NCBI GenBank assembly: GCA_002782005.1
Contig: PFGT01000074.1
Location: 56-64,055 of the forward strand
Direction: 5' to 3'
DNA: 64,000 bases
Origin: Hydrogenophilales bacterium CG12_big_fil_rev_8_21_14_0_65_61_21
GTDB lineage: Bacteria; Pseudomonadota; Gammaproteobacteria; Burkholderiales; Thiobacillaceae
The notes beneath the pieces were generated by a model. That model was given only the letters and a program-made list of their open reading frames with translations. It did no database searches and was not told the DNA's origin. The translations under genes were made by a program, and so were the position numbers. This document shows, one piece after another, positions 13,734 to 52,026 of this stretch. The stretch's first letter is position 1. Every line of letters starts with the position of its first letter.

Positions 13734-15028
13734 GGCGCGGGCGAGTGGAACTCAGGGTCGGTGTCTTCCAGCTCGATCGCCGCCGCCAGGGCGGCCAGGC
13801 GGGCCAGCACGCCGTAGGTGTAAAAACGGTTGACCGGGGCATCCGGCCGTGCACTGGCATCTGGCAGGGTACAGGCCGCCTCGAAGGCCAGCGGCACGAA
13901 GCTCATACCGGGGGCATTCAGGTTCTCGTCCATGCCGCGGCTGGTGTGAACCCGATAAAAGCCGCCGATAACGAAGTGGTCGATCATATAGATCACCGGC
14001 TCGGCTACCGCGTCATCAATCGATTCGAAACTGTAGACGCCTTCCTGCACCAGTACCTGATCGACTGACAGGCCCTCCTTGACCACGGCCATCTTGTTGC
14101 GGGTCTTGCGATTGAGATCGCGCACATCGTCCACGCTGCGGGCGGTCAGGATGCCCATGCCGTAGGTGCCGGCGTCGGCCTTGACGATGACGAAGGGCGC
14201 CTTGTCGATGCCATATTCCTGGTACTTCAACTTAATCCGTTTGAGTAGCGCGTCGACATTCGAGGCTAGGCACTCCTCGCCGTCGCGGGTCTGGAAATCC
14301 ACCGCACCGCAGACCGCGTAATAGGGGTCGATCAGCCACGGATCGATGCCGACCACCTGGCCAAAGGCCTGCGCCAGATCGGCATACGCCCGGAAATGGT
14401 TCGACTTGCGCCGCACCGCCCAGCCGGCATGAAGCGGCGGCAACAGGGTCTGGTCCGGGTCGAGACCTTTCAGTATGTCCGGAATGCCGCCCGACAGATC
14501 GTTGTTGAGCAGCACCGCGCACGGGTTGAAACCCTCGACCATGAGCCGGTCGTCGACCCGTTTGACCGGTTCGAGTTTCAGCACGCCGCCGTCCGGCAAG
14601 TCCAGTATCAGCGGCTCCTTGAGGTCCGGGATCAAGCTGCCGATGCGCACCGTGAGGCCGGTCTTGCGGATGATCTCGGCCAGGGCCGCGACATTCTGCA
14701 AATAGAACAGGTTACGGGTGTGGTTCTCCGGAATAATCAAAAACCGCTGGGCCGAGGCGCACATCTTTTCCACCGTCACCTGAGCGGCCTGCACCGCCAG
14801 GGGCAGAAAGGCCGGGTTCAGGTTGTTGAAGCCGCCGGGGAACAGATTGGTATCGACCGGCGCCAGCTTGAAACCTGAATTGCGCAGGTCGACCGAGGTA
14901 TAAAACGGTGTGGCGTGTTCCTGCCATTGAGTGCGGAACCAGTGTTCAATGGCCGGTTGAGCGTCGATGACCCGTTTTTCCAGGTCCAGCAGAGGACCGG
15001 ACAGCGCCGTGGTAAGGTGAGGAACCAT
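13730..15028 (-). CDS. gshA: Glutamate--cysteine ligase, compact ~430-aa lineage (Acidithiobacillus ferrooxidans-type, as I recall TIGR02049)
   Basis: Translationally coupled to gshB. The N-terminal block FYTSVDLRNSGFKLAPVDTNLFPGGFNNL matches my memory of this GCL family. Family assignment is from memory, not from a search. Confidence 0.7.
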   Translation of the reverse strand: MVPHLTTALSGPLLDLEKRVIDAQPAIEHWFRTQWQEHATPFYTSVDLRNSGFKLAPVDTNLFPGGFNNLNPAFLPLAVQAAQVTVEKMCASAQRFLIIPENHTRNLFYLQNVAALAEIIRKTGLTVRIGSLIPDLKEPLILDLPDGGVLKLEPVKRVDDRLMVEGFNPCAVLLNNDLSGGIPDILKGLDPDQTLLPPLHAGWAVRRKSNHFRAYADLAQAFGQVVGIDPWLIDPYYAVCGAVDFQTRDGEECLASNVDALLKRIKLKYQEYGIDKAPFVIVKADAGTYGMGILTARSVDDVRDLNRKTRNKMAVVKEGLSVDQVLVQEGVYSFESIDDAVAEPVIYMIDHFVIGGFYRVHTSRGMDENLNAPGMSFVPLAFEAACTLPDASARPDAPVNRFYTYGVLARLAALAAAIELEDTDPEFHSPAP

Positions 15029-15042
15029 AATGACTCGTTAAA

Positions 15043-15546
15043 ATGCCGTGTTCCGATTGTAATGCAAGGCCGGCCGCCGCTACCGTGTTCCATATCGTCC
15101 TGTTCCAACCCGAAATACCGCCCAATACCGGCAACATCATCCGCCTGAGCGCCAATACCGGTTGCCGGCTGCATCTGATCAAGCCGCTGGGCTTCGAATT
15201 GACCGACAGACACATGCGCCGCGCCGGACTGGATTATCACGAATATGTTGACCTCCATATTCACGACCACTGGGATGCCGCCAAGGCCATCCTGCCGCCG
15301 ACCCGCTATGCCTTCACCACCAAGGTGTCGCACCCCTATCACAAAGTCGTCTTCAAGCCAGGCGATGTCTTCGTGTTTGGGCCGGAAACACGGGGGCTAC
15401 CCGAAGACGTGCTGACCGACTTCCTGCCGGAGAACCGCTTGCGGCTGCCGATGCTGGCGGGCCAGCGCAGTTTGAACCTGTCCAATGCCGTGGCGGTGAC
15501 CGTGTTCGAGGCCTGGCGACAGTTGGGTTTCAGCGGTGGAATCTGA
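15043..15546 (+). CDS. trmL: tRNA (cytidine/uridine(34)-2'-O)-methyltransferase TrmL (SpoU family)
   Basis: [25 protein letters not shown] and the C-terminal knot region LNLSNAVAV. The true start may be the GTG at 15085 (VFHIVLF). Confidence 0.9.
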
Positions 15547-17684: not shown

Positions 17685-17942
17685 TCAAGCCGCCAGCAAG
17701 GGGTCGAGACCACCGCCCGAGTCAAGCGCCGAGAGATCGTCGAAGCCGCCGACATGACGATCGCCGATGAAAATCTGCGGCACGGTGCGGCGGCCGGTAA
17801 TTTCGATCATCGCGTCGCGTTGCGCCGGATCAAGGTCGATGCGGATCTTTTCGATCTCGGTTACGCCCTTATTGCCGAGTAACCGCTCGGCCATCTGGCA
17901 GTAGGGGCAGGTTGCGGTGCAGTACATCTTGACGTGGGGCAT
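17685..17942 (-). CDS. grxC: Glutaredoxin 3
   Basis: 85 aa with CPYC active site (YCTATCPYCQMAERLL) and the TVPQIFI motif. Confidence 0.95.
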   Translation of the reverse strand: MPHVKMYCTATCPYCQMAERLLGNKGVTEIEKIRIDLDPAQRDAMIEITGRRTVPQIFIGDRHVGGFDDLSALDSGGGLDPLLAA

Positions 17943-17943
17943 C

Positions 17944-18360
17944 TCAGCGCTCCTTGGGGAAACCAGCCTGTTCCCAGGCCATGATGCCGCCGCTCAGGTT
18001 GCTGACATCCTCAAACCCGGCCTTGCGCAATATGCCGCAGGCATGACCGGAGCGGTTGCCGCTACGGCAGACCGCGACGATGGGCTTGCCCTTGTACTTT
18101 TCCAGATCGGCCAGGCGGCCTTTCAACTGACTGAGCGGGATGTGTTTGGATTTCGGGATGTGGCCATCGGCGAATTCCGAGCTCTCGCGCACATCGAGCA
18201 TCAGCGCATCGTTGTTGAACAGCCTGACCGCATCCTGGGGACCAACCTGCTTGACGCCGGACAGGCGGCCCATCAAGCTGCCGCCGACCAGCATGTAGCC
18301 GGATACCAGCATCAACAGGATCAGCCAGATGTTTTGTTGGGCGAATTCCATCCCATTCAC
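17944..18360 (-). CDS. Membrane-anchored rhodanese-domain protein (YibN-like)
   Basis: N-terminal TM helix (IWLILLMLVSGYMLVGG), rhodanese fold and active-site loop AVCRSGNRS. It occupies the yibN position upstream of grxC-secB-gpsA. Confidence 0.85.
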   Translation of the reverse strand: MNGMEFAQQNIWLILLMLVSGYMLVGGSLMGRLSGVKQVGPQDAVRLFNNDALMLDVRESSEFADGHIPKSKHIPLSQLKGRLADLEKYKGKPIVAVCRSGNRSGHACGILRKAGFEDVSNLSGGIMAWEQAGFPKER

Positions 18361-18392
18361 CTCCAGGTAATTAAGAACGCAGGGATTCTACC

Positions 18393-18620
18393 CTAGCGGC
18401 TGCAAGTGCCGTCGCCGGACTTGAGGCCCAGCTTCTTGAACAGCAATGCCGGCGGGCAGAAGCCGGTGATGCCGGACTGGAGCAGGTTGAGGCCGATGAA
18501 GACGGTAAACCATAGCCAGGACAGATGGCCGAGGTCGATCTGGCCGCTGAAATGGGCCAAGGCCAGGGACAACAGGATCATGACCCCTGCCATGATGCGG
18601 ATCGCGCGTTCGACGGTCAT
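18393..18620 (-). CDS. DUF2892 (YgaP-like transmembrane domain) small inner-membrane protein
   Basis: 75 aa with two TM helices (RIMAGVMILLSLALA ... LLQSGITGFCP). Strong SD (GAGGAGAAACACC-ATG) at the ATG at 18620, 23 nt after the RND stop. Confidence 0.75.
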   Translation of the reverse strand: MTVERAIRIMAGVMILLSLALAHFSGQIDLGHLSWLWFTVFIGLNLLQSGITGFCPPALLFKKLGLKSGDGTCSR

Positions 18621-18643
18621 TGGTGTTTCTCCTCGCAAAAGAA

Positions 18644-21600
18644 TTATGTGGTTTGTTGACGGCGCTGCCACAAGTAATAGACCAGCGGGATCACCACCAG
18701 GGTCAAGGCCGTGGATGCGAAGGTACCGAAAATCAGCGAAACCGCCAAGCCCCCGAAGACCGGATCGGTAATCATGATGGCCGAGCCCAGGATAATCGCC
18801 AGGGCGGTCAACAGGATGGGCCGAAAGCGCACCGCGCCGGCCTCGACGATGGCCGTTTCCAGGTCGTAGCCGCGCTTGCGGTAATCCAGTATGAAGTCAA
18901 TAAGCAGCAATGAGTTACGGACCACGATGCCGGCCAGGGCGATGACGCCGATCATCGAGGTGGCGGTGAAGGCCTGGCCGGTCGCCCAGTGGCCAGGGAA
19001 TACGCCGACCAGGGTGAGCGGGATCGCGCCCATGACGATAAACGGCAAGGCGAAAGACTTGTAGTAGCCAACCAGCACCAGGTAGATCAGGACGATGGCG
19101 ATGATGAAGGCAGAACCCAGGTCGCGGAACACGTCCAGGGTCAGGCGCATCTCGCCGCCCCAGAGCAGGGTGTTTTCCACTACATCCTTGGGGCTGGCCT
19201 GGGTAAAGCCGAGGTTGCCGGTAGCGAAGCTGACGCCATTGGCCAGCTTCTGACCGTCGAGCCGCTTGTCCAGAGCCAGCACGGCATAGACCGGACTGGA
19301 CTTAAGCAACTCGCCGCCGACCATGACCATGGGATGCTGGTCGCGGTCATAGATCGGCTTGGCGACGGTCACTCTGGTCACCGTGGCAATGGCCGACAGC
19401 GGTACCTGCTTGCCTTGCGGGTTGGCGATTCGCAGGCTGAGCAGGGTATCGGGCGTGGTGCGCAATTCACGCGGCAGACGCACCTGGATGTCCACCGGCT
19501 CGCGCGCGTCGAGCGCGTGAAGGGCGCCAATATTGAAGCCCGAGACGTAGTTGCGCAGCAGCTCGGCTACCTGACCCGGCGCCACGCCGGACAGCAGTGC
19601 CTTCTCGGTATCGACCTTGACGTCGTAGCCGTCGGCGTTGGCGGTGACCGAATCGTCAGCATTGGTCATGCCGTAGACGGTCTCGAAATCCTGCTCGACG
19701 ATGGCCGCCGCCGCGCGCAGCCGGTCATAGTCTGGGCCATACAGCTCAGCCAGCACCTGGGCCTGAACCGGCGGTCCGGGCGGCGTTTCATAGAGCTTTA
19801 TTTTGGCCGAGGGGAAACGCTTGCGCAGCGCCATCAACTGGCCATTCAACTCGTTGGCGATCTCATGCGATGAGCTGTCACGCTCGTGCTTGTTGACCAG
19901 ATTAACCCGAATCTGGGCCAGATTCTGGCCCTTCTTTATCAGGTCGCCACGCACCAGGGCGGCGAAATCGATCGGCGCGGTCATGCCGAGGAAGGTCTGG
20001 TAGTCGGTTATATGGGGATGCACAGCCAATATCCGGCCGACCTCGCGCGCTACCTGGTCGGTTGCCGCCAGGGCCGTACCGGCCGGCATATCGACCTCCA
20101 GCAGCATGGTGTTGGTGTTGTCGTTGGGCAGCATCTTCAGCTCGACGCCCAACATCGACAACGGCCCGTTCAAGCCCGCCGGACGGATGAACTGCCAGGC
20201 CGGCATCAGCATGGCGCCAAGTAGCAACGCCGACACGACCAGGAAGATCAGGTTACGTTTGGCCGGCGACGCGATCAGCGGCGTTAGAACCGCGACATAG
20301 GCACGATGCAGTGCGTCCTGTGCCGATGCGCCTTCATCTTCCAGGCTGGGCTTGCGCGCGGCCTCTTCGCGGGCCGCCTTCTTGGCCAGCCACAGGTTGG
20401 CGGCCCAGGGTACAACCATGTAGGCGATGATAATGGAGGCGATCATGGCGACCGGCACGTTGAACGGGATCGGCGCCATGAACGGCCCCATCATGCCGGT
20501 CACAAAGGCCATGGGGATGAAGGCCAGGATCACGGCGACGGTGGCAACGTTGGTCGGGTTGCCGATCTCGTTGGTGGCCTCGATCAGCACGCTGCCGAAG
20601 TCCTTGCCACCCGTGCCGTGATGCAGATGGCGGTGGATGTTCTCGATTACCACGATGGCCGCGTCGACCAGCAAGCCGAGCGACAGGATCAGCGCGAACA
20701 GGGTGATGCGGTTGATCGTCTGACCGAAGGCCAGGCCGATTGCCAGGACCACGAACAGGATCAACGGCACCGTCAGGGTGACGATGCCGGCCTCGCGCCA
20801 ACCGAGGAAGATGACCAGGATGACCACCACCGAGCCGATGGCCAGCCCCAAGTGCGAGACCAGCTCGTTGACCGCCTCGTTGGCCTTCTCGCCGTCGTTG
20901 CGGGTCACGGCGACCTCGATGCCGGCCGGGATGGCCTGTTTTTTCAGGTCCGCCAGCTTGGCCAGTACCGCGTCGGCGACAACCACGGCATTGGCGCCGG
21001 CCTTCTTGGCGATGGCCAGGGTCACGGCCGGGTTCTCACCATGGCCGGACTTGCCCAGGGCCTGGCCCCAGGCGAAGCGCGTGGTCTCTTCCAGCTCGCC
21101 CGGCCCGTCTTCGATCTGCGCCACATCCTTCAGGTAGACCGGACGGCCCATCTGGGACACGCCCACCACGATCTTGCCAACTTCGTCGGCCGAGCCGAGA
21201 AACCCGGACAGCCGCAATGGCCGGGCTTGGTTATCCCGCACCAGATCGCCCAACGGCGCCGAGACATTGCTGCCGCGCAGCATTTTGTCGACCTTGTCCA
21301 GGGTCAGGCCGGCCGCGTCCAGGCGCTGGGCATCGAGCCAGACGTTGACCATGTGCTTACGGCCGCCGACCACCTGAGTGAACGAGACGCCTGGGACATT
21401 GCGCAACTGTTCCAGGATACGGTTGGCCACCTCGCGCAAGGTGTAATCGTCATAGGCTGATGCCGCCAGAGTCAGGGTCATGATCGGCACGTCGTCGACG
21501 TTGATCGGCTTGACCAGCGGCTGCGTGGCGCCCGGCGGGATGCGATCGATGTTTTGCATCAACTGGTTGTATAGCTTGACCAGGCTGTCTTCCTGCTTTT

Positions 21601-21931
21601 GTCCGACCTTGAACTGAATGGTCACGACGCCAAAGTCGTTGGTCGCATAGCCGAAGGTGTGATCGACCCCGGACTGGGCGTTCATGATCGCTTCCAGCGG
21701 CTTGACGATCAGGTTCTCCACCTCGGCCGGCGTTGCGCCCGGCTTGGCGACGATGATGTTGGCCGCCGGCACGACGATTTGCGGGTTGTATTCGCGCGGC
21801 GTAACCATCAGCGCCAGGGCGCCGGTCAGGGTCACGGCGACGATGGTCAGCAGGGTCAGCTTGGAGGTCAGAAAGGCTCTGGCCAGCTTGCCGGCGATGT
21901 TCATCGGGCTTTCGTGTCCGGTGTCGCTCAT
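18644..21931 (-). CDS. RND efflux transporter, inner-membrane permease (AcrB/AcrD/AcrF superfamily)
   Basis: 1095 aa with the 12-TM, two-large-periplasmic-loop architecture. Follows the MFP gene with a 3-nt gap. Confidence 0.9.
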   Translation of the reverse strand: MSDTGHESPMNIAGKLARAFLTSKLTLLTIVAVTLTGALALMVTPREYNPQIVVPAANIIVAKPGATPAEVENLIVKPLEAIMNAQSGVDHTFGYATNDFGVVTIQFKVGQKQEDSLVKLYNQLMQNIDRIPPGATQPLVKPINVDDVPIMTLTLAASAYDDYTLREVANRILEQLRNVPGVSFTQVVGGRKHMVNVWLDAQRLDAAGLTLDKVDKMLRGSNVSAPLGDLVRDNQARPLRLSGFLGSADEVGKIVVGVSQMGRPVYLKDVAQIEDGPGELEETTRFAWGQALGKSGHGENPAVTLAIAKKAGANAVVVADAVLAKLADLKKQAIPAGIEVAVTRNDGEKANEAVNELVSHLGLAIGSVVVILVIFLGWREAGIVTLTVPLILFVVLAIGLAFGQTINRITLFALILSLGLLVDAAIVVIENIHRHLHHGTGGKDFGSVLIEATNEIGNPTNVATVAVILAFIPMAFVTGMMGPFMAPIPFNVPVAMIASIIIAYMVVPWAANLWLAKKAAREEAARKPSLEDEGASAQDALHRAYVAVLTPLIASPAKRNLIFLVVSALLLGAMLMPAWQFIRPAGLNGPLSMLGVELKMLPNDNTNTMLLEVDMPAGTALAATDQVAREVGRILAVHPHITDYQTFLGMTAPIDFAALVRGDLIKKGQNLAQIRVNLVNKHERDSSSHEIANELNGQLMALRKRFPSAKIKLYETPPGPPVQAQVLAELYGPDYDRLRAAAAIVEQDFETVYGMTNADDSVTANADGYDVKVDTEKALLSGVAPGQVAELLRNYVSGFNIGALHALDAREPVDIQVRLPRELRTTPDTLLSLRIANPQGKQVPLSAIATVTRVTVAKPIYDRDQHPMVMVGGELLKSSPVYAVLALDKRLDGQKLANGVSFATGNLGFTQASPKDVVENTLLWGGEMRLTLDVFRDLGSAFIIAIVLIYLVLVGYYKSFALPFIVMGAIPLTLVGVFPGHWATGQAFTATSMIGVIALAGIVVRNSLLLIDFILDYRKRGYDLETAIVEAGAVRFRPILLTALAIILGSAIMITDPVFGGLAVSLIFGTFASTALTLVVIPLVYYLWQRRQQTT

Positions 21932-21934
21932 CGT

Positions 21935-23008
21935 TCAGCCCCGCACCAGGTCGCCGTTATTGACCGCCGAGGCATTGCGGGTGACCACCCGATCGCCGGC
22001 GGCCAACCCCGAGAGTATTTCGACCTGACCGTGGTCGGTCCGGCCGCTACGGACCATGCGATAGTCGGCCACGCCCTTGGCGTCCAGCACGAATACGCCG
22101 GTGATGCCGGCGCGATTCAAGACCGCCTCCTGGGGGACTTGCAGGACGGCCTGCCGACCGGTTGGAAACAGCACCCGGGCGAAGGCGCCGCTACGCAGAC
22201 TTGGCGCGCTCACGTCTAGTTTGACCAGATGGGTATGTGCGACCGGGTCGGCAGCAGGTGACAGACGAGCAACCGCGCCCTCGACCGGCTGCACCTGACC
22301 GTCCACCTCGATCTTGATCCTGGCGCCCAGCTTCAGGCCGGAATAGATCGCCTCGGACACTGCGGTCTGGACCTGCAAATGGGCCTGATTTTCCACCAGC
22401 AGGACCGGGTGGCCGGGGGCGGCGATGTCGCCCTGGTTGGCGAATTTCTGTACCACCACGCCGTTGATCGGCGAGACGACCACGGCATAGCGCAACTGGC
22501 CATGGGCGGTTTGCAGGCCGGCCTTGGCCTGGGCGGCGCGGGACGCAGCGATGTCATAGTTCAGCTTCATCTTTTCATATTGCTGACGGCTGACCACTTC
22601 GTCCTTGTACAGGGCATCGAAACGGGCATAGTCGGCCTTGGCGTCCTGCATGGCCTTTTCGGCCTGGTCGAGGCCCAGCCGCGCTTGCGCGACGCCACCC
22701 TCGATGTCCATCGGATCGATGGTGAACAGGCGCTGGCCGGCCTTGACCGACTGGCCTTCGGCCACCGCGATATTCTTGATGTAGCCCATCAGGCGCGAGG
22801 CCACCTGAACCGATTCCTGGGCCACCACGGCGCCCGGCAGCGGGCTGTAGATCACGCTCTCGACCGGTTGTAAGGTCACAACACCGGCATTTACTGTGCG
22901 CGCAGCAGCGGCCGCCGGCGCTTTTTCATGGCTGCCGCCGCAACCGGTCAGGCTCAGGGCAACGGCAAGTAGGATGGGGTTGAGCTTGTTCATCGGTTCA
23001 TTCCTCAC
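21935..23008 (-). CDS. RND efflux periplasmic adaptor (MFP), lipoprotein
   Basis: Lipobox LSLTGCGG. Coiled-coil hairpin plus lipoyl/beta-barrel segments typical of the HlyD/AcrA family. Confidence 0.9.
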   Translation of the reverse strand: MRNEPMNKLNPILLAVALSLTGCGGSHEKAPAAAAARTVNAGVVTLQPVESVIYSPLPGAVVAQESVQVASRLMGYIKNIAVAEGQSVKAGQRLFTIDPMDIEGGVAQARLGLDQAEKAMQDAKADYARFDALYKDEVVSRQQYEKMKLNYDIAASRAAQAKAGLQTAHGQLRYAVVVSPINGVVVQKFANQGDIAAPGHPVLLVENQAHLQVQTAVSEAIYSGLKLGARIKIEVDGQVQPVEGAVARLSPAADPVAHTHLVKLDVSAPSLRSGAFARVLFPTGRQAVLQVPQEAVLNRAGITGVFVLDAKGVADYRMVRSGRTDHGQVEILSGLAAGDRVVTRNASAVNNGDLVRG

Positions 23009-24396
23009 AATTGATCGGCGTCCAGTACACCCACGGCCAGTTTCAATGCCGCGCGCTGCACTGCCTGATCGTAGTCAGCGGCAACCAGGTCGGCGCGGGC
23101 CTTGTCCAGTTGAGCCTGGGCGGCAAGCAGCTCGATCAGCGTACCCAGGCCATTCTCATAGCGTTTCTTGACCAGCCGCTGCGCCTCGCTCGCCTCCGCG
23201 ACGGCGAGCGTCCGGGCCTTGACCTTCTCCTCCGCTTCCTGAGCCCGACGTTTAGCATCGCCCACTTTGTAGGCGATGCCGTTGCTGGCCTGATCGAGCT
23301 TGGCGACCGCCTCCAGGCGCTGGGCCTCGGCCCGATCCACCGCGGCCCGACTGCCGCCGCCGTCGAAGGCGGTCCACGACAACACACCCGCCGCAGTATA
23401 CGAACTGGAATCGAGGCCTAATGTCTTGCCGTTCCAGTCCTGGCGCAGCATGACGTTGAATTGCGGCAGTTTGCCGGCGCGCGCGGCGGCTACGGCGGCG
23501 GCGGCGCCATCGGCCTGATTACGCAAGGCTTGCAAACCCTGGTGATTAGCCAGGGCAGCCTGACGCAGGCTGGCGACATCGCCCTCCAGCGTGACCGGCA
23601 TGACCGGCGCGCCGACATCGAGCGGCTCAGCCAGCGGCTTGCCCAGCAGCAGATGGAGTTGGTCGAGCGCGGCGGCTTCGGCGTTGCCGGCCGAAACCGA
23701 TTTCAGTTTCATGTCCGCCAGATTGACCTCGGCGGACAACAGATCACTTTTCACCGCCATGCCCTGTTTAAAAAGCTGGGTGCTGATCCGCACAAACTCC
23801 TCGGCGGCAGCCCGCGCCTCACCGGCGACCTGAACGTAGGCCCGGGCGGTATGCACCCCCTGGTAGGCCATCAACACCTGCTTGACCAGTTGCTGGCGAG
23901 CCAGCCTATCCCCGGCCTGGGCCGCCTTGACATAAGACTGGGCCTGTTTGACATAGTCGGCCACCATGCCGCCGTTGTAGACCGGGATGAGCAGTTCGGC
24001 CCGCGGGTTGAAGTTGGTCACCGCGTCGGGGTGGTTGAGGTCGCGCGGAGCGACGCTCAGAATATTCGGATTGGTCGAATCGAAATCGCGAAAGCCGAAG
24101 TCGCCGAACGTGGCGCCGCGCTGCCCCAGTTTTAGGCCGAAGGCATTCAATGCGTCGTTGCTTTGGGTGGCGGTCACGGACAAATTCAATTTCGGCCAGT
24201 AATTGGCCTGCGCCTGACGCAGCCCCGCCTCGGCCTGTTTGACCTGGGCCTGGGCCATGGCCAGGTCGGGGTTTTGCGTCAGGGCGATGCCCACGCACTG
24301 CTTGAAATCCAGGGTTTCCGAGCAAGCGCCCGTTGTGGTCAAGGCAAGCGCAATGGCCAGGACTATGCGGCGCGGCATAAACAAAACCATATCCAT
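23005..24396 (-). CDS. TolC-family outer-membrane efflux protein
   Basis: 463 aa with a signal peptide and duplicated OEP repeats (e.g. PKLNLSVTATQSND...). First gene of the C-B-A-ordered operon, with a 4-nt overlap onto the MFP gene. Confidence 0.9.
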   Translation of the reverse strand: MDMVLFMPRRIVLAIALALTTTGACSETLDFKQCVGIALTQNPDLAMAQAQVKQAEAGLRQAQANYWPKLNLSVTATQSNDALNAFGLKLGQRGATFGDFGFRDFDSTNPNILSVAPRDLNHPDAVTNFNPRAELLIPVYNGGMVADYVKQAQSYVKAAQAGDRLARQQLVKQVLMAYQGVHTARAYVQVAGEARAAAEEFVRISTQLFKQGMAVKSDLLSAEVNLADMKLKSVSAGNAEAAALDQLHLLLGKPLAEPLDVGAPVMPVTLEGDVASLRQAALANHQGLQALRNQADGAAAAVAAARAGKLPQFNVMLRQDWNGKTLGLDSSSYTAAGVLSWTAFDGGGSRAAVDRAEAQRLEAVAKLDQASNGIAYKVGDAKRRAQEAEEKVKARTLAVAEASEAQRLVKKRYENGLGTLIELLAAQAQLDKARADLVAADYDQAVQRAALKLAVGVLDADQL

Positions 24397-24437
24397 GCTC
24401 CTTTGGGACTGTCTCCCGGTCCTGAACCCAGGCCCGG

Positions 24438-46226: not shown

Positions 46227-46664
46227 TTATTTGCCTTTTGCGACCAGCCTAAAACTAGCATGGCAGGCATTGCAGTTTTGCAGGGTCTCACTCAACTGCT
46301 GCAGGCTGTGGCCGGTATCGCCCAGGCCCTCGGCATCGATGGCCAGGTTGTCGAAACCCATATGCGTGGCATGGCCCATTTGCTTGAACGCCATGGGGAA
46401 TTTCTTGCGCAGGCTCATCGGCACATGGTTGGCGCCGGCCATACCCAAGGCGCGCGCGGCCTTGGCCACCGCCTTCATATCGTTGTCGGCAAGACCTCGG
46501 CTGATTTCCTGGACGCCTTCGAGAAAACCGCGCATTTCTTCATTCACTGCCGCCGCCTCGGTAGCGCTGAGGGTTAACGGCGTGCGGGCATCCTCGGCGT
46601 GGGCAGGGAGGACGGCGAGACAGAGTGCGGTGCAGAGCAGATAGCGCATGGCGGGGGCTTTCAT
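46227..46664 (-). CDS. Class II (four-helix-bundle) c-type cytochrome, cytochrome c'/c556-like
   Basis: Signal peptide and a helical protein with a single heme site very near the C-terminus (LQNCNACHASFR). The start is either 46664 (ATGA overlap with bioA) or 46649 (MRYLL). Confidence 0.75.
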   Translation of the reverse strand: MKAPAMRYLLCTALCLAVLPAHAEDARTPLTLSATEAAAVNEEMRGFLEGVQEISRGLADNDMKAVAKAARALGMAGANHVPMSLRKKFPMAFKQMGHATHMGFDNLAIDAEGLGDTGHSLQQLSETLQNCNACHASFRLVAKGK

Positions 46665-47977
46665 AGTGTTTGCAAAATATTGAGCGTGACGTCGGCCATC
46701 AGCCGCATCTCCGGCGCCTCGATAACATAGGGTGGCATGAAATAGACTGTGCTGCCGATGGGCCGGATGAACAGGCCTTGGGCCAGCGCCAGGCGATGGC
46801 AGTTCCGGCCGAACCCGGGCGGCGCATCGGCGACGTCGAAGGCCCAGATCATACCGGTCTGGCGGAAATGGCGCACCCTGGGGTGACTACGCACCTCGGC
46901 TAACAAGGAGGTGAGATGTTCCGCACGGACCCGGTTGGCCTCGATCACGCTGTCCTGCTCGAAGATGTCCAGCACCGCCAGCGCCGCCCGGCAGGCCAGC
47001 GGGTTGCCGGTGTAGGAATGGGAATGGAGAAAACCCTGCGCACTGTCATCGTGGTAAAAGGCGGCGTAGACCTGATCCGTGGTGAGCACGGCGGACAGCG
47101 GCAGATAGCCGCCGGTGATGCCTTTGGACAGACAGATGAAATCGGGCCGGATGTCGGCCTGCTCGCACGCGAAAAATGTCCCGGTGCGGCCGAAGCCGAC
47201 CGCGATCTCGTCAGCGATCAGGTGGACGCCATGGCGGTCGCACACCTCGCGCGCCGTGGTCAGATAGACCGGGTGATGCATGGCCATCCCGGCCGCGCCT
47301 TGCACCAGGGGCTCAACGATGACGGCGGCCGTGGTATCGGCATGGGCGGCGAGATAGCCATCCAGATCGGCGGCGGCGCGCAGGGCATAAGCCTCGGCCG
47401 ACTCGCCCGGCTCGGCCAGCCGCCAGTCGGGCGACATGGCCTGATGGCTGGGCCGCAGCAGCGGCGCATAGGTTGCCTTGAACAGGGCGACATCGGTGAC
47501 CGACAGCGCGCCCAGGGTTTCGCCGTGATAAGCATGCTGCAGGCTGACGAAGCCGGTCTTTGCCGGCTGGCCGGAATTGCGCCAGTAATGGAAGCTCATC
47601 TTCAGGGCGATCTCGGTCGCCGAGGCACCGTCGGAACCGTAGAAGGCGTGACCCAGCCCGGTCAGCCAGGCCAGGCGCTCCGACAATTCCACCACCGGGG
47701 CATGGGTGCAACCGGCCAGCATGACGTGCTCGATTTTGCCGAGCTGATCGACGATGGCGGCATTGATGCGCGGCTCGGCATGGCCGAACAGGTTCACCCA
47801 CCAGGACGAAATGGCATCGAGATAGCGCCGGCCGTCATAGTCGATCAGCCACGGCCCTTCGCCCCGCTCGATCGGCAACGGTGGCGTCGCGGCCAACTGC
47901 TTCATCTGGGTACAGGGGTGCCAGAGGGCGGCTTGGGTACGGTCTAGCCAGGCAGTGTTACTGGTGCAAGCGTTCAT
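46661..47977 (-). CDS. bioA: Adenosylmethionine-8-amino-7-oxononanoate aminotransferase
   Basis: Class III PLP aminotransferase with BioA-like blocks (HPCTQMK, LIADEIAVGFGRTG, CLSKGITGGYLPL). Confidence 0.9.
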   Translation of the reverse strand: MNACTSNTAWLDRTQAALWHPCTQMKQLAATPPLPIERGEGPWLIDYDGRRYLDAISSWWVNLFGHAEPRINAAIVDQLGKIEHVMLAGCTHAPVVELSERLAWLTGLGHAFYGSDGASATEIALKMSFHYWRNSGQPAKTGFVSLQHAYHGETLGALSVTDVALFKATYAPLLRPSHQAMSPDWRLAEPGESAEAYALRAAADLDGYLAAHADTTAAVIVEPLVQGAAGMAMHHPVYLTTAREVCDRHGVHLIADEIAVGFGRTGTFFACEQADIRPDFICLSKGITGGYLPLSAVLTTDQVYAAFYHDDSAQGFLHSHSYTGNPLACRAALAVLDIFEQDSVIEANRVRAEHLTSLLAEVRSHPRVRHFRQTGMIWAFDVADAPPGFGRNCHRLALAQGLFIRPIGSTVYFMPPYVIEAPEMRLMADVTLNILQTL

Positions 47978-48134
47978 TTTTCGTCTTGTAGCCTTGGGGT
48001 TAATGCTGATTTGATTCGCCGCCGAAATTGTGGGCCAGTTCGCCGTTATGACGCCGAATAGTCCGTTGCGGGATGTTGCATCAGCGAAATTATGTAGCTA
48101 TTTGATTTTTCGCGACAAAAAAATTTACAACGTT

Positions 48135-48169
48135 AAACCATGGATGGTTTCTTGCAACAAAGTGCAACA
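48135..48169. promoter_or_regulatory. Candidate upstream activator sites: palindrome AAACCAT-GG-ATGGTTT and direct repeat TGCAACA-N3-TGCAACA
   Basis: Palindrome at 48135-48150. The TGCAACA copies start at 48153 and 48163, one helical turn apart. They lie 55-90 nt upstream of the sigma54 -24 element. Confidence 0.35.
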
Positions 48170-48221
48170 TTAAGCAGCACTGATTCGAACGCTATAAACA
48201 TATAAATCAATTAGATACAGA

Positions 48222-48237
48222 TGGCACGGGGTTTGCC
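48222..48237 (+). promoter_or_regulatory. Sigma54 (-24/-12) promoter
   Basis: TGGCAC-GGGGT-TTGCC gives an exact GG-N10-GC geometry and a near-consensus match to TGGCAC-N5-TTGCW. It is intergenic, on the correct strand, and about 160 nt upstream of the Gly/Trp-repeat gene. Confidence 0.7.
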
Positions 48238-48397
48238 AGGGGTTAAAACGTGGGTTTGCCCAACATAGCGACAAAACCCGTCATTTACCCGAGTCGAACG
48301 AGCGCCTGGAAACGGCCGGTCGCCGGCATCGAGTAAGTGAATAGGCTGCTTGATAGTGAGCAGAAGAAAGGCCATTCAACCTTGAAAGGAGAAAAAA

Positions 48398-48844
48398 TTG
48401 AAATTCAATATTCTTGGCAAACAGAAATTGCTGGTTCTTGCCATGCTTGCCGGGCTCTCATACGGCGGTCTGGCAGCCGCCGCTCCCTGGGGTGGCCCGG
48501 GTTGGGGCGGTCCGGGATATGGCTACGGCCCCGGCTGGGGCGGACCTGGCTATGGCAATGGCTGGAACAACGGCTGGGGCAATAACGGCTGGGGCAACGG
48601 CTGGGGCAACGGCAACGGCTGGGGCAACGGTCGAGGTTGGGGCAACGGGCGCGGCTGGGGCAACGGCAACGCCAATTTCGGTTTCAACATGGGCGGCGAC
48701 GGCTGGGGTTGGGGTAACGGCAACGGCAATACCTGGGATGGCTGGAACGGCAACAACGGTTGGGGCAACGGCTGGAACAATGGCTGGGGCAACAATGGCT
48801 GGGGTGGGCCGGGCTGGGGACCCTGGCGTAGCGGCTGGTGGTAA
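48398..48844 (+). CDS. Secreted Gly/Trp/Asn-repeat protein (no family recognised)
   Basis: TTG start 5 nt after AGGAGA. Signal peptide MKFNILGKQKLLVLAMLAGLSYGGLAAAA. The mature part consists of GWGNG/GWNNG/GRGWGNG repeats capped by GGPGWGGPGYG-type segments. Confidence 0.7.
   Translation: MKFNILGKQKLLVLAMLAGLSYGGLAAAAPWGGPGWGGPGYGYGPGWGGPGYGNGWNNGWGNNGWGNGWGNGNGWGNGRGWGNGRGWGNGNANFGFNMGGDGWGWGNGNGNTWDGWNGNNGWGNGWNNGWGNNGWGGPGWGPWRSGWW
48490..48835 (+). repeat. Imperfect in-frame tandem repeats (GGCTGGGGCAAC[GGC] units) encoding the GW(G/N)N(G) repeats
   Basis: Visible directly, e.g. ggctggggcaacggctggggcaacggcaacggctggggcaacgg at about 48590-48635. This is a coding low-complexity repeat, not a CRISPR array. 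Confidence 0.85.
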
Positions 48845-48855
48845 TCACCCAGCGT

Positions 48856-48884
48856 CCTATTGGGCGGCGCTGCCGCCCAATAGG
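48856..48884. terminator. Perfect 13-bp hairpin between convergent genes
   Basis: CCTATTGGGCGGC-GCT-GCCGCCCAATAGG. There is no flanking T- or A-tract, so it may be a rho-independent-like or REP-like element. Confidence 0.45.
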
Positions 48885-48924
48885 ACAATGTGAGTCGCCT
48901 GCTGCATCAGGATCAGAAGCCGCC

Positions 48925-49842
48925 TTACCGGCTCTGGGTGACGTCGGTCGCTAAGCCATCCTGGCGCTGTATCGCCTCAATTGTGCGCGGCCAGTCGATC
49001 CGGTCTGCCAGTCCATAGTCGCGCGCCTGCCTCCGTATTTCATCCAGCGGCACGATGCCCCGTTTATAGACATCGGGATGGACCTCGACGTACACCCTGC
49101 CGTCCTGGGTTTCCGCGAGCAAGGTGGTGCGGTATGCCAATGCCACGTCGGCGCCAACCTCGGCCCCTTGGGAAAGTGTCTCGATGTCGTCCGGGTGGGC
49201 GCGAATGCAGCCGTGACTCTGGAAGCCATAGACGCTGGCCGGCGAGATGGTGCCGTGGATGCCATAGCCGACGGCGCTCAAACTGATCCAGTGCCGGCCT
49301 AGCGGATTTTTTGGCCCAGGTGGCACGCGAGTAATGACCTCCTTGCCCTCCTCCCGCATTTCTTCTTGTATCGAGAGCGGCACCAGCCATGACTTATCGG
49401 TTTGCAAGTCGACCACTTTGAAATTCCCCGTCGGAGTTGGCCAATCGGGCTTGCCTACCCCGACGGGGAATGCGGCGGCCAGCGCACCTTTCTGGAAAAA
49501 GAACAACATACGCTGCGGTAGATTGATGACTATCCCGTTCTCGCGCCATTCCGGGACGATATGCAGGTTGTCGATCCAGAGCGCGTCGCCGGCTGCGAGC
49601 GGCACCTTGCGATCCAGGTTGTTGGCCTTGGCCAGGATGGTTGCGGAAACGCCGAAACGAGCGCCGACCCGGCTCAGCCGGTCGCCCGATTGCGCGACAT
49701 ACGGAAAGACTCCACCAACGATTGCATGTGAAAACGCGCTACCCTCTTCGGCAAGGACATTCGATCCGAAGACCAATAGAGCGAGGCTAACAAGGATGCT
49801 TGAGGATTTCATGGTGGGCGTAAGTTCATTCAATGCGGGCAT
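48925..49842 (-). CDS. L,D-transpeptidase (YkuD domain) with a LysM domain
   Basis: LysM region (GDRLSRVGARFGVSATILAKANNL) and YkuD catalytic region (YGIHGT...SHGCIRAHPDD). Signal peptide present. Confidence 0.85.
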   Translation of the reverse strand: MPALNELTPTMKSSSILVSLALLVFGSNVLAEEGSAFSHAIVGGVFPYVAQSGDRLSRVGARFGVSATILAKANNLDRKVPLAAGDALWIDNLHIVPEWRENGIVINLPQRMLFFFQKGALAAAFPVGVGKPDWPTPTGNFKVVDLQTDKSWLVPLSIQEEMREEGKEVITRVPPGPKNPLGRHWISLSAVGYGIHGTISPASVYGFQSHGCIRAHPDDIETLSQGAEVGADVALAYRTTLLAETQDGRVYVEVHPDVYKRGIVPLDEIRRQARDYGLADRIDWPRTIEAIQRQDGLATDVTQSR

Positions 49843-50011: not shown

Positions 50012-50302
50012 ATGAAAATCCGCCCTTTGCATGACCGCGTCATCGTCAAGCGCATGGAAGAAGAACGTAAGACCGCTTCCGGTATTGTCATACCCGACAC
50101 CGCCGCCGAGAAGCCCGACCAAGGCGAAGTCGTCGCCGTTGGCCCCGGCAAGCGCGACGACAGCGGCAAGCTGATCGCCATGGAACTGAAGGTCGGCGAC
50201 CGCGTGCTGTTCGGCAAGTATGCCGGCCAGACCGTCAAGGTCAAAGGCGACGAGCTTCTGGTCATGCGTGAAGAAGACATCATGGGCGTGGTCGAGAAGT
50301 AA
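50012..50302 (+). CDS. groES: Co-chaperonin GroES
   Basis: [14 protein letters not shown]...[11 protein letters not shown], with SD AAGGAGG. Confidence 0.98.
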
Positions 50303-50349
50303 TTTTCGCGCCCTTAACACCTGGATTCCCGCCAGCGCGGGAATGATGA

Positions 50350-52026
<1,677 letters not shown>

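What the first reader, a model, noticed from the sequence alone, without database searches (positions are those of the whole stretch)
48398..48844. Secreted protein made almost entirely of Gly/Trp/Asn repeats
The 148-aa ORF has a good RBS (AGGAGA, 5 nt, TTG) and a classical Sec signal peptide ending in AAAA. The mature ~118 residues are almost only G, W and N. I count about 22 Trp. The motifs are GWGNG, GWNNG and GRGWGNG, with Pro/Tyr-containing caps (GGPGWGGPGYGYG ... GWGGPGWGPWRSGWW) at both ends. There is no hydrophobic core and only two acidic residues, so it cannot be an ordinary globular protein. By composition it recalls Gly/aromatic-repeat structural proteins. The closest bacterial analogy I know is the Gly/Tyr-repeat sulfur-globule envelope proteins (SgpA-C) of purple sulfur bacteria, which are also Sec-exported. 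A Trp/Asn-based repeat of this kind is not a family I can name. Other possibilities are an amyloid or matrix protein, a mineral or metal-surface binding protein, or a Gly-rich bacteriocin-like peptide.
Basis: partly seen in the sequence, partly recalled or inferred. Interest (0 to 1): 0.75.

Follow-up and report, generated by a model that had tools for sequence, protein, structure and literature searches.

The report
Secreted Gly/Trp/Asn coat-like protein, sigma-54 controlled
This is a real gene for an exported, unstructured protein made almost only of glycine, tryptophan and asparagine; it belongs to a small unannotated family that resembles the proteins coating bacterial sulfur globules and appears to be co-regulated with a conserved, uncharacterised envelope gene cluster.

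Summary
ORF 48398-48844 (+) has a TTG start, an AGGAGA ribosome-binding site and a Sec-type signal peptide. The mature part is 82% Gly/Trp/Asn with 22 Trp. The gene is real: this is the only frame open in all nine homologous genes examined, and differences from the homologue P0008 concentrate at third codon positions. No Pfam, NCBIfam or PDB relative was found, and AlphaFold2 predicts disorder.

It belongs to a rare, unannotated family. Members share an N-terminal WGGPG cap, GXG/GRG repeats, a single (N/H)FGFNM motif and a C-terminal GPWR(R/S)GWW. In Azonexus, Sulfuriferula and Rhodoblastus, members lie inside a conserved cluster: an MFP (RND periplasmic adaptor), a long-tailed RND exporter, other secreted low-complexity proteins and a membrane-anchored TPR protein; a sigma-54 activator gene (Azonexus, Sulfuriferula) and SCP2-like and ParA-like genes (Azonexus, Rhodoblastus) were seen in two of the three. 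In equivalent clusters elsewhere, a Pfam-type sulfur-globule protein lies downstream of the RND gene, after other secreted low-complexity proteins.

The window copy stands alone but carries the same promoter architecture as those clusters: a tandem TGCAAC element followed by a perfect -24/-12 promoter.

Formal membership of the sulfur-globule family PF17228 fails. The similarity there is compositional and the module order differs.

Best reading: a sulfur-globule-protein-like envelope coat or matrix protein. A sulfur cargo is plausible but unproven.

The parts
48153..48168 (+). Putative upstream activator site: tandem TGCAAC-N4-TGCAAC, starting 69 bp before the start of the -24 element
   Evidence: It is the only occurrence in the 64-kb window, where 0.01 is expected. 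The same element occurs once in each Azonexus locus, 59 bp before the cluster's sigma-54 promoter. An N5 variant lies 62 bp before the Sulfuriferula cluster promoter. Function as an activator-binding site is inferred.
48205..48217 (+). IHF-like site AATCAATTAGATA between the upstream element and the promoter
   Evidence: AATCAA-N2-AGATA lies at the same relative position in the window and in Azonexus L005. The IHF assignment rests only on resemblance to the consensus as I recall it.
48222..48236 (+). Sigma-54 promoter TGGCACGGGGTTTGC (-24 GG / -12 GC), 176 nt before the start codon
   Evidence: It is the only TGGCAC-N5-TTGC match in the window on either strand, where 0.18 is expected over the whole window, and it scores 11/11 against the consensus.
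48387..48392 (+). Ribosome-binding site AGGAGA, 5-nt spacer
   Evidence: Read directly from the sequence.
48398..48481 (+). TTG start and Sec-type signal peptide (residues 1-28, probable cleavage AAA|AP)
   Evidence: The n/h/c regions were read from the sequence. AlphaFold2 predicts a helix at residues 5-24 as the only structured element. Homologues carry ASA|QWGG at the same place. No SignalP tool was available.
48482..48844 (+). Mature low-complexity protein (about 120 aa) plus stop codon. Modules: N-cap WGGPGWGGPGYG (48488-48523); (Gly-X)14 run (48587-48670); central NANFGFNMGGD motif (48668-48700); GWGNNGW repeats; C-terminal WGPWRSGWW (48815-48841)
   Evidence: Family alignments are, DNA tandem repeats of period 12/15/18/33, and the disorder prediction.
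48854..48886 (+). Perfect 15-bp GC-rich hairpin 9 nt after the stop codon, between this gene and the convergent L,D-transpeptidase gene; probably a bidirectional terminator
   Evidence: Folding energy is -32.6 kcal/mol with z = -5.4, and 0 of 200 shuffles fold as well. There is no T-run, so the simple terminator scan missed it.

Best explanation
The ORF encodes a Sec-exported, intrinsically disordered Gly/Trp/Asn protein of a small unannotated proteobacterial family. The family architecture is: signal peptide, WGGPG cap, GXG/GRG repeats, one (N/H)FGFNM motif, aromatic-Gly-Asn repeats, and a C-terminal GPWR(R/S)GWW.

In other bacteria, family members are encoded inside a conserved cluster. That cluster holds an MFP (RND periplasmic adaptor), an RND permease with a long Lys/Pro/Ala tail, several other secreted low-complexity aromatic proteins and a membrane-anchored TPR protein. 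A PAS-type sigma-54 activator gene was seen in the Azonexus and Sulfuriferula loci, and SCP2-like and ParA-like genes in the Azonexus and Rhodoblastus loci (the Sulfuriferula locus ends before that region). The window copy is a stand-alone, monocistronic gene, but it has the same promoter architecture as those clusters. It is therefore most likely switched on by the orthologous activator encoded elsewhere in this genome.

Inferred mechanism: after export, the protein self-associates through Trp stacking and Asn/Gly backbone contacts. The (Gly-X)n stretches would put Trp, Asn and Arg on one face of an extended chain. The assembly would form a coat or matrix on a hydrophobic extracytoplasmic deposit or surface. 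In other words it works like a sulfur-globule envelope protein. In this organism, labelled Hydrogenophilales, the deposit may be zero-valent sulfur, but that step is not shown.

Shown: the gene is real; it has export-type features; it belongs to the family; family members and SGP-type proteins both lie downstream of orthologous RND genes; the promoter elements are shared. Inferred: co-regulation, coat or matrix function, and cargo identity.
For: The gene is real and the frame is conserved.

Family membership:
- P0001 matches at E = 3e-15 and the P0002-P0006 group at about 1e-10 to 1e-11 in a database of 5.8 billion sequences. P0008 from Azonexus matches at 2e-4.
- Family alignments show the colinear modules.
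- The only Phe-x-Phe-x-Met in the mature protein is the 9-mer NFGFNMGGD, identical to that in the Azonexus paralogue and the L010 protein.
- Against an HMM built from the other family members (cluster-encoded and paired ones), the real sequence beats the reversed one (-10.0 vs -23.8 bits). It also beats 298 of 300 block-6 shuffles.

No globular fold: mean pLDDT is 40.6, with only the signal helix predicted. PDB matches are limited to weak RGG/GR tails.

Cluster context:
- Azonexus L002-L005.
- Sulfuriferula L019, including an uncalled family member at 14850-15365.
- Rhodoblastus acidophilus L021.
- A conserved pair of family member plus membrane-anchored TPR protein in L010, L013, L016 and L018.

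Link to sulfur-globule proteins:
- The same RND subfamily (54-77% identical among these loci, against 36% to the window's own RND) is followed by secreted low-complexity proteins and then the PF17228-positive protein P0010 in L006.
- In L024 it is followed by the W/N-rich near-threshold SGP protein P0030.
- A. vinosum sgpD is reported to lie next to a hydrophobe/amphiphile exporter (PMC10386293).
- The N-cap is identical to that of SGP protein P0047.

Regulon link:
- The perfect sigma-54 promoter is unique in the window.
- Sigma-54 promoters also head the Azonexus and Sulfuriferula clusters.
- The tandem TGCAAC element is unique in the window, in each 20-kb Azonexus locus and, as an N5 variant, in Sulfuriferula. 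Measured start to start, it lies 59-69 bp before the -24 element in each case.
- The two cluster activators are 64% identical with near-identical HTH regions.

The gene forms a monocistronic unit closed by a strong hairpin, as described for the sgp genes.
Against: - No experiment bears on localisation or function.
- The window gene is solitary, and neither the activator nor the RND cluster lies in the 64 kb.
- Other solitary family members (L011, L012, L009, L010) show no sigma-54 promoter, so the regulatory link is not universal.
- Scores for such low-complexity sequences are fragile. After HMMER's bias correction the window protein scores below zero against the family HMM, and 14 of 300 block-12 shuffles reach its score.
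- The cluster occurs in Rhodoblastus acidophilus and Azonexus, which to my knowledge do not form sulfur globules, so the cargo may not be sulfur. The cluster's function is unknown.
- The sulfur-oxidiser status of the source organism rests only on its taxonomic label.
Confidence: 0.5

Rival explanations
1. It is specifically a sulfur-globule envelope protein: a betaproteobacterial functional counterpart of SgpA/SgpB. It would coat periplasmic or cell-attached zero-valent sulfur made during sulfide or thiosulfate oxidation. This is a narrower version of the best explanation with the cargo fixed as sulfur.
For: - SGP-type N-cap, Sec export and Gly/aromatic composition.
- The family profile reaches the PF17228 members P0032, P0034 and P0010.
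- P0034, a PF17228 member, matches the family HMM colinearly: 33.9 bits against 8.5 reversed, with 0 of 200 block shuffles reaching it.
- Pfam-positive or near-threshold SGP proteins lie downstream of the same long-tailed RND gene.
- The cluster is present in Sulfuriferula, whose cultures precipitate elemental sulfur (PMC12285272). RND orthologues occur in Thiorhodospira and in a Solemya sulfur symbiont.
- The source organism is labelled Hydrogenophilales.
Against: - PF17228 gives no hit even at E <= 10.
- The SGP HMM does not beat block shuffles for most family members (z up to 2.2; 2 of 200 shuffles reach the window protein's score). Reversed family sequences score up to 46 bits, so the module order differs.
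- The same cluster with family members occurs in the purple non-sulfur bacterium Rhodoblastus acidophilus and in Azonexus.
- No sulfur-oxidation genes lie in the annotated part of the window (about 1-58.4 kb).
- The reviewed literature places sgp genes in Gammaproteobacteria.
Confidence: 0.28
2. It is a periplasmic sacrificial or sequestering sponge: a Trp-rich protein, alongside Met-rich cluster partners, that scavenges oxidants or binds soft metal ions such as Cu(I), rather than building a structure.
For: - Cluster partners include Met-rich repeat proteins: GGMNPMM in Sulfuriferula and GSPMGMG in Azonexus.
- Trp, Tyr and Met are the most oxidisable residues.
- Precedents recalled from memory and not tested here: the Met-rich periplasmic peptide MrpX of perchlorate reducers, and Met/Trp Cu(I) sites in CusF.
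- An RND/MFP pair heads the cluster.
Against: - The cluster RND scores far better as a multidrug or hydrophobe type than as a CusA/CzcA heavy-metal type (453.7 vs 220 bits).
- No methionine sulfoxide reductase or copper genes were seen in the clusters.
- The window protein has one Met and no His or Cys in its mature part.
- The TPR, ParA-like and LysM partners suggest assembly or positioning rather than chemistry.
Confidence: 0.1
3. It is a secreted Gly-rich bacteriocin or antimicrobial peptide.
For: Small size, Gly-rich composition, export signal, and a stand-alone gene.
Against: - It has a Sec signal, not a double-glycine leader.
- No immunity gene, C39-peptidase ABC exporter or modification genes lie nearby. 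The neighbours are bioA, a cytochrome-like protein, an L,D-transpeptidase and groESL.
- Homologues sit in structural-looking clusters.
- There is no PADLOC, Pfam or NCBIfam hit.
Confidence: 0.03
4. It is not a functional gene: an ORF that stays open only because the DNA is a GGC/TGG/AAC-type repeat.
For: Several other frames across the repeat are also largely open in the window, with 1-3 stops each.
Against: - Frame +1 is the only frame open in all nine homologues.
- Third-position differences are in excess.
- The ribosome-binding site, signal peptide, promoter and terminator hairpin are all correctly placed.
- Non-repeat motifs are conserved across classes.
Confidence: 0.02

Closest known systems
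SgpA/SgpB-type sulfur globule envelope proteins (Pfam PF17228 'SGP'; Allochromatium, Thiocapsa, Thioalkalivibrio and others)
   Same: - Small and Sec-exported, with Gly plus aromatic low-complexity composition.
- An aromatic-Gly-Pro cap directly after the cleavage site. WGGPGWGGPGYG is identical to that of SGP protein P0047.
- GRG-type repeats and one short Phe/Met hydrophobic motif.
- A monocistronic gene closed by a terminator hairpin.
- Both kinds of protein can lie downstream of the same long-tailed RND exporter gene.
   Different: - Not detected by the PF17228 model.
- Trp/Asn replace Tyr as the dominant partners of Gly.
- Module order is inverted. SGP has the F-x-M motif, then GRGYGRG, then a Tyr/Pro tail. 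This family has cap, GRG/GXG repeats, FGFNM, aromatic repeats, then a C-terminal RGWW.
- It has no acidic or Gln-rich tail.
- It is found in Beta- and Alphaproteobacteria, including non-sulfur species.
- The promoter is sigma-54 type, whereas a sigma-70-type promoter is predicted for sgpD and, according to the paper, for the other sgp genes (PMC10386293).
SgpD (Alvin_2515) locus of Allochromatium vinosum
   Same: An exported, repetitive structural protein of the globule envelope, whose gene lies next to a hydrophobe/amphiphile (RND-type) exporter and a transcriptional regulator (PMC10386293). This parallels the activator-MFP-RND-secreted-protein clusters found here.
   Different: SgpD is described as helical or coiled-coil with regularly spaced prolines, not Gly/Trp/Asn. 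Whether the A. vinosum exporter belongs to the same RND subfamily could not be tested with the data available.
Unnamed cluster-encoded relatives: Azonexus P0008 and its 177-aa paralogue, the Sulfuriferula L019:14850-15365 product, and the Rhodoblastus 187-aa protein
   Same: The same family: signal peptide, cap, GRG/GXG repeats, (N/H)F(G/S)(F/M)NM motif, and C-terminal (GP)(W/F)RRGW(W).
   Different: Most relatives are Tyr/Arg-rich in the first half. The window protein is the most extreme Trp/Asn version. It is also a stand-alone gene rather than a cluster member.
Gly/Asn/Tyr/Trp-rich adhesive coacervate proteins such as mussel foot protein 3, and eukaryotic RGG/FUS-like low-complexity domains (physical analogy only)
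   Same: Disordered Gly-rich chains with aromatic and Arg or Asn 'stickers'. The only PDB sequence matches are RGG/GR tails.
   Different: There is no evolutionary relationship and the biological setting is different. The mussel-protein comparison comes from memory and was not tested.

Membership tests
Pfam PF17228 SGP (SgpA/SgpB-type sulfur globule proteins) | Scores above the family's curated HMM threshold (26.7 bits) | tested here: not met
   The window protein gives no hit even at E <= 10. The relatives P0008, P0001, P0007, P0021, P0026, the Sulfuriferula protein and the Rhodoblastus proteins also give none. Positive controls pass: P0010 38.9, P0034 34.8 and P0032 31.8 bits.
Pfam PF17228 SGP (SgpA/SgpB-type sulfur globule proteins) | Colinear similarity of the mature region beyond composition | tested here: not met
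   The window protein beats residue shuffles against an SGP HMM (z = 6.7) but beats block-6 shuffles only weakly (z = 2.2; 2 of 200 reach its score). Its reversed sequence scores the same (-13.1 vs -12.9 bits), and other family members score higher when reversed, up to 46 bits. hhalign aligned only the signal peptide and cap.
Pfam PF17228 SGP (SgpA/SgpB-type sulfur globule proteins) | Sec signal peptide followed directly by an aromatic-Gly-Pro cap (A|WWGGPG(Y/W)G) | tested here: met
   The window protein has ...AAA|APWGGPGWGGPGYG, against P0047 with ...AQA|WWGGPGWGGPGYG.
Pfam PF17228 SGP (SgpA/SgpB-type sulfur globule proteins) | Physical presence in the envelope of sulfur globules | not testable with these tools
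   This needs proteomics of purified globules or fluorescent-fusion localisation.
Pfam PF17228 SGP (SgpA/SgpB-type sulfur globule proteins) | Host is a sulfur oxidiser that deposits zero-valent sulfur (sox without soxCD, sqr/fcc, dsr or hdr) | tested here: inconclusive
   No such genes lie in the annotated part of the window, about 1-58.4 kb. The organism is known only as 'Hydrogenophilales bacterium CG03_land_8_20_14_0_80_62_28', identified through an identical GroEL.
Unnamed 'FGFNM...RGWW' family (defined here) | Signal peptide or membrane anchor, Gly-aromatic cap, GRG/GXG repeats, a single (N/H)F(G/S)(F/M)NM motif, and a C-terminal aromatic end (R)GW(W) | tested here: met
   All modules are present and colinear. 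Database matches run from E = 3e-15 to 2e-4. The real sequence beats the reversed one and 298 of 300 block-6 shuffles against an HMM that excludes the window protein.
Unnamed 'FGFNM...RGWW' family (defined here) | Encoded in, or co-regulated with, the activator-MFP-long-RND-secreted-protein-TPR cluster | tested here: inconclusive
   The gene is not in a cluster in the window. It does share the tandem TGCAAC element, the IHF-like site and the sigma-54 promoter with the Azonexus and Sulfuriferula clusters. The activator gene of this genome was not seen.
Gly-rich bacteriocins/microcins | Double-glycine or other dedicated leader, with adjacent immunity, export or modification genes | tested here: not met
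   The leader is Sec-type and the neighbours are housekeeping genes.
Curli/functional amyloid subunits (CsgA-like) | Curlin repeats and csgBEFG-type partner genes | tested here: not met
   There is no Pfam hit of any kind and no such neighbours.

The most novel reading that the evidence does not exclude
The protein may be one building block of a previously undescribed extracytoplasmic organelle-like system found in Alpha-, Beta- and Gammaproteobacteria.

In this reading, a sigma-54-controlled module exports or organises a hydrophobic cargo. The module combines an SCP2-like protein, an MFP and an RND pump with a histone-like cytoplasmic tail. A set of disordered Trp/Tyr/Met/Gly-rich secreted proteins condenses around that cargo. 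Membrane-anchored TPR proteins tether the assembly. A ParA-like ATPase positions it from the cytoplasmic side. Classical sulfur-globule proteins would then be the specialised, Tyr-rich branch of this wider class. The biogenesis of sulfur globules, which is still unexplained, would become testable through this gene set in cultivable Rhodoblastus and Sulfuriferula.
Probability: 0.3. Interest if true: 0.85.

Novelty: new variant of a known kind. Interest (0 to 1): 0.62.

Why it matters
How bacteria build and bound extracytoplasmic sulfur globules is poorly understood. The only known components are a handful of low-complexity Sgp proteins in Gammaproteobacteria.

This finding does three things:
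- It defines a Trp/Asn-based relative in Betaproteobacteria and Alphaproteobacteria that current family models miss.
- It shows that such proteins, like bona fide SGP proteins, lie downstream of one specific long-tailed RND exporter gene in a conserved cluster, with membrane-anchored TPR proteins and, in two loci, ParA-like partners.
- It provides a candidate regulatory code (tandem TGCAAC element plus sigma-54 promoter) linking scattered genes to that cluster.

Together these give a concrete, genetically tractable gene set for asking how periplasmic deposits are made, coated and positioned. The family is also a natural example of a bacterial exported protein built from aromatic 'stickers' and glycine 'spacers'.

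Tried and rejected
- Pfam, NCBIfam and PADLOC scans of the ORF returned nothing.
- Rfam on 47900-49000 returned nothing meaningful.
- The simple terminator and sigma-70 promoter scan found nothing on the gene's strand. The hairpin was found by folding instead.
- hhalign of the family against SGP gave 98% probability but aligned only the signal peptide and cap, so I discarded it as evidence of homology.
- Residue-shuffle z-scores of 4.5-6.7 for the Trp-rich members first looked like support for SGP homology. Block shuffles and sequence reversal removed that support, so I do not claim membership.
- AlphaFold2 gave a low-confidence, disordered model. I therefore ran no fold search, because it would have been meaningless.
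- The PDB profile search found only RGG/GR tails.
- Pattern scans for the FGFNM motif found few confirmed loci: 2 in 185,579 species genomes and 6 short ones in the metagenome contigs. The pattern misses variant motifs such as HFGMNM and NFSFGG, so the family's distribution is underestimated.
- I searched the window for the cluster partners (membrane-anchored TPR, ParA-like, SCP2-like, long RND). Only a generic RND at 36% identity turned up.
- I looked for the sigma-54 promoter and TGCAAC element upstream of the other solitary homologues and of the Rhodoblastus and Thiorhodospira clusters, and found none.
- Literature searches for a described Gly/Trp-rich periplasmic family, or for this cluster, found nothing.
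- I considered and rejected curli, bacteriocin and spurious-ORF readings (see rivals).
Full report
**1. Observation**

The ORF at 48398-48844 (+) exists as described.
- It starts with TTG five bases after AGGAGA (48387-48392).
- It encodes 148 residues.
- It opens with a typical Sec-type leader: K2, K8 and K10, then the hydrophobic core LLVLAMLAGL, then ...GLAAAA.
- Counted from Pro30, the mature part has 51 Gly, 25 Asn, 22 Trp, 7 Pro and two Asp, with no Glu.
- Gly+Trp+Asn make up 82% of the mature sequence (counted from Ala29). Residues 64-91 have Gly at every second position.
- Because Pro at +1 blocks signal peptidase I (my own knowledge), cleavage is probably AAA|AP.
- It is the only ORF of this composition in the window.
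- The DNA is a mosaic of imperfect 12-, 15-, 18- and 33-bp repeats.

**2. Is it a gene?**

The repeat keeps other frames partly open in the window. Across nine homologous genes from different lineages, only frame +1 is always free of stops. Against the Azonexus homologue P0008, differences fall 42/40/69 on codon positions 1/2/3. Of 82 conserved residues, 35 use different codons. The identical protein was called in 67 assembly blocks.

**3. Transcription unit**

- The only TGGCAC-N5-TTGC match in the whole window lies at 48222-48236 on the correct strand, 176 nt before the start codon.
- Nine nucleotides after the stop codon there is a perfect 15-bp hairpin at 48854-48886. Its folding energy is -32.6 kcal/mol with z = -5.4. 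It sits between this gene and the convergent LysM/YkuD L,D-transpeptidase gene.
- The gene is therefore a monocistronic, sigma-54-type unit.
- The neighbours are housekeeping genes: bioA, a 145-aa CxxCH protein, a DsbH-like thioredoxin and groESL. No sox, dsr, sqr or fcc genes occur in the annotated part of the window, about 1-58.4 kb.
- An identical GroEL identifies the source as 'Hydrogenophilales bacterium CG03_land_8_20_14_0_80_62_28'.

**4. Family**

Pfam, NCBIfam and PADLOC give nothing. AlphaFold2 predicts only the signal helix, with mean pLDDT 40.6. A PDB profile search finds only weak RGG/GR tails.

A search of 5.8 billion proteins finds a small set of relatives: P0001 at E = 3e-15, P0002-P0006 at about 1e-10 to 1e-11, and P0008 from an Azonexus MAG at 2e-4. 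A profile search of 1.84 billion representatives returns only 24 proteins at E <= 1e-3.

Members share one colinear plan:
- a signal peptide, or in some members an N-terminal membrane anchor;
- a Gly-Pro-aromatic cap;
- GRG/GXG repeats;
- one (N/H)F(G/S)(F/M)NM motif followed by Asp;
- aromatic-Gly-Asn repeats;
- a C-terminus of the type GPWR(R/S)GWW.

In the window protein, the only Phe-x-Phe-x-Met of the mature chain is this motif. Its 9-mer NFGFNMGGD is identical in an Azonexus paralogue and in an uncultured betaproteobacterium. Against an HMM built without the window protein, the real sequence beats its own reversal and 298 of 300 block-6 shuffles. It beats only 286 of 300 block-12 shuffles, so the statistics are supportive but not overwhelming.

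**5. Relation to sulfur-globule proteins**

The family profile retrieves proteins that pass Pfam PF17228 'Sulphur globule protein': P0010 at 38.9, P0034 at 34.8 and P0032 at 31.8 bits. The window protein's cap WGGPGWGGPGYG is identical, at the same position after the leader, to that of SGP protein P0047.

Strict controls do not support homology of the whole chain. An SGP HMM beats residue shuffles but not block shuffles for most family members. Reversed family sequences score higher than forward ones, up to 46 bits. This happens because the modules come in the opposite order. The hhalign match covers only the leader and cap. Only P0034 bridges the two groups colinearly: 33.9 bits against 8.5 reversed, with 0 of 200 block shuffles reaching it. 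I therefore do not file the protein under PF17228.

**6. Genomic context of relatives**

This was the most informative result.

In four Azonexus contigs, P0008 and a Tyr-rich 177-aa paralogue lie in one cluster. The cluster contains:
- a divergent PAS-type sigma-54 activator and a sigma-54 promoter;
- an SCP2-like protein, an MFP and a 1337-aa RND permease with a long Lys/Pro/Ala tail;
- a secreted protein ending ...PPPPLW;
- the two family members;
- a membrane-anchored TPR protein;
- further secreted Gly/Pro and GSPWGG-repeat proteins;
- a ParA-like ATPase;
- two more TPR proteins, one of them with LysM.

The same cluster occurs in a Sulfuriferula MAG. It is headed there by a perfect sigma-54 promoter and includes an uncalled family member at L019:14850-15365. 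It also occurs in the isolate genome of Rhodoblastus acidophilus, with a 187-aa family member and a Trp-rich GSPWGG protein. A minimal pair of family member plus membrane-anchored TPR protein recurs in four further loci.

The RND permeases of these clusters form one subfamily, 54-77% identical among themselves but only 36% identical to the window's own RND. In other loci the same subfamily is followed by secreted low-complexity proteins:
- in L006 these end with the PF17228-positive P0010;
- in L024 they include the Trp/Asn-rich, near-threshold P0030 (21.5 bits);
- in Thiorhodospira sibirica there are two Pro/Tyr/Trp-rich proteins.

The literature notes that A. vinosum sgpD lies beside a hydrophobe/amphiphile exporter and a regulator (PMC10386293). 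So family members and SGP-type proteins both lie downstream of orthologous RND genes in equivalent clusters. This supports 'works like an Sgp' even though 'is an Sgp' fails.

The named RND orthologues include sulfur oxidisers: Sulfuriferula, Parasulfuritortus, a Solemya symbiont and Thiorhodospira. They also include Rhodoblastus, Rhodovulum, Roseiarcus, Hyphomicrobiales and Azonexus. The system is therefore not confined to known globule formers.

**7. Regulatory link of the solitary window gene to the cluster**

- The motif TGCAAC-N4-TGCAAC occurs once in the window, at 48153-48168, where 0.01 is expected. Measured start to start, it lies 69 bp before the -24 element.
- It occurs once in each 20-kb Azonexus locus, 59 bp before the cluster promoter.
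- An N5 variant lies 62 bp before the Sulfuriferula promoter.
- The window and Azonexus also share AATCAA-N2-AGATA between the two elements. By my recollection of the consensus this resembles an IHF site.
- The two cluster activators are 64% identical with nearly identical HTH regions.

I infer that the window gene is driven by the orthologous activator encoded elsewhere in this genome. No such elements were found at the other solitary homologues or at the alpha- and gammaproteobacterial clusters.

**8. Interpretation**

Shown:
- the gene is real and exported-type;
- the protein is disordered and low-complexity;
- it belongs to an unannotated family;
- family members lie in a conserved RND-centred cluster, in a downstream position where SGP-type proteins are found in equivalent clusters;
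- promoter elements are shared.

Inferred:
- the protein self-assembles, with Trp, Asn and Arg displayed on one face of the (Gly-X)n stretches;
- it forms a coat or matrix on a hydrophobic extracytoplasmic deposit or surface;
- the deposit may be sulfur in this organism, which is plausible but unproven.

Sulfuriferula cultures do precipitate elemental sulfur (PMC12285272). Rhodoblastus and Azonexus argue for a broader cargo or role. The rival readings (redox or metal sponge, bacteriocin, spurious ORF) are less well supported; see the rivals section.

**9. Novelty**

The composition is extreme. The family and its cluster are unannotated: no Pfam or NCBIfam models match the low-complexity, SCP2-like or small secreted partners. 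The connection between Sgp-type proteins, a specific RND subfamily, TPR and ParA-like partners and a sigma-54 regulon was not found in the literature I searched. I rate it a new variant of a known kind (Sgp-like envelope proteins). There is a real possibility that the cluster represents a new extracytoplasmic organelle-building system.

Noticed in passing
L005:1295-15612 (Azonexus); L019:7079-16572 (Sulfuriferula); L021:8277-17641 (Rhodoblastus acidophilus): A conserved, unannotated gene cluster. Its parts are a sigma-54 activator (Azonexus and Sulfuriferula loci), an SCP2-like protein (Azonexus and Rhodoblastus), an MFP, an RND permease with a long Lys/Pro/Ala-rich C-terminal tail, a small secreted protein ending ...W(D/N)WW...PP(P)(L/F)W, several secreted low-complexity proteins (Gly/Tyr/Arg, Gly/Trp/Asn, and Met-rich GGMNPMM or GSPMGMG/GSPWGG repeats), membrane-anchored TPR proteins sharing a 'GELGNV' domain, and a ParA-like ATPase (Azonexus and Rhodoblastus; the Sulfuriferula locus ends before that region). 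Its function is unknown.
   Followed up: partly
L019:14850-15365 (+): The Sulfuriferula MAG GCA_013140765.1 has an uncalled 171-aa gene between two called genes. It encodes a family member (...GRGNGHFGMNMDMADFFGGNGFGNGWGNGNGNGWGNNWGP...WGPFRRGW).
   Followed up: yes
L014:1279-1602; L017:825-1358; proteins P0020, P0022, P0024: Some family members are not secreted. They are anchored by an N-terminal transmembrane segment ('TPKWV..VP') that is homologous to the anchor of the cluster's TPR proteins. They sit directly downstream of a secreted family member.
   Followed up: partly
L005:7875-8738 (C-terminal ~290 residues of the RND permease) and equivalents in L024:13-1128: The RND permeases of this subfamily carry a long cytoplasmic tail of Lys/Pro/Ala-rich repeats (GGRPPRLAKK..., with Pfam HC2/histone-H1-like hits). 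Encoded next to a ParA-like ATPase, this suggests nucleoid-based positioning. That is pure speculation.
   Followed up: no
P0012 (183 aa) and P0010 (86 aa): Two database artefacts. P0012 is an acyl-CoA dehydrogenase fragment fused to the last 25 residues of the window protein at 100% identity, and is probably a chimeric short contig. P0010 ends in ...VSYTHLTLPTS at a contig end; from memory, this reads like translated sequencing-adaptor sequence.
   Followed up: no
window 46227-46664 (-): A 145-aa exported protein with a single C-terminal CNACH haem-binding motif (cytochrome c'-like or b562-like layout) and no Pfam hit on record. It lies between bioA and a DsbH-type thioredoxin gene.
   Followed up: no
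window 17700-24400 (-): An ArsR-type regulator, an outer-membrane factor, an MFP and an RND permease (18644-21931). Immediately downstream on the same strand come a YgaP-like membrane protein, a rhodanese, a glutaredoxin and a thioredoxin. The RND is only 36% identical to the cluster-type RND.
   Followed up: partly
L010:5000-6000 and L015:303-668, compared with window 50012-52026: groES/groEL lies within a few kb of the family gene both in the window and in the uncultured betaproteobacterium MFD04716. This may be loose synteny or coincidence.
   Followed up: no
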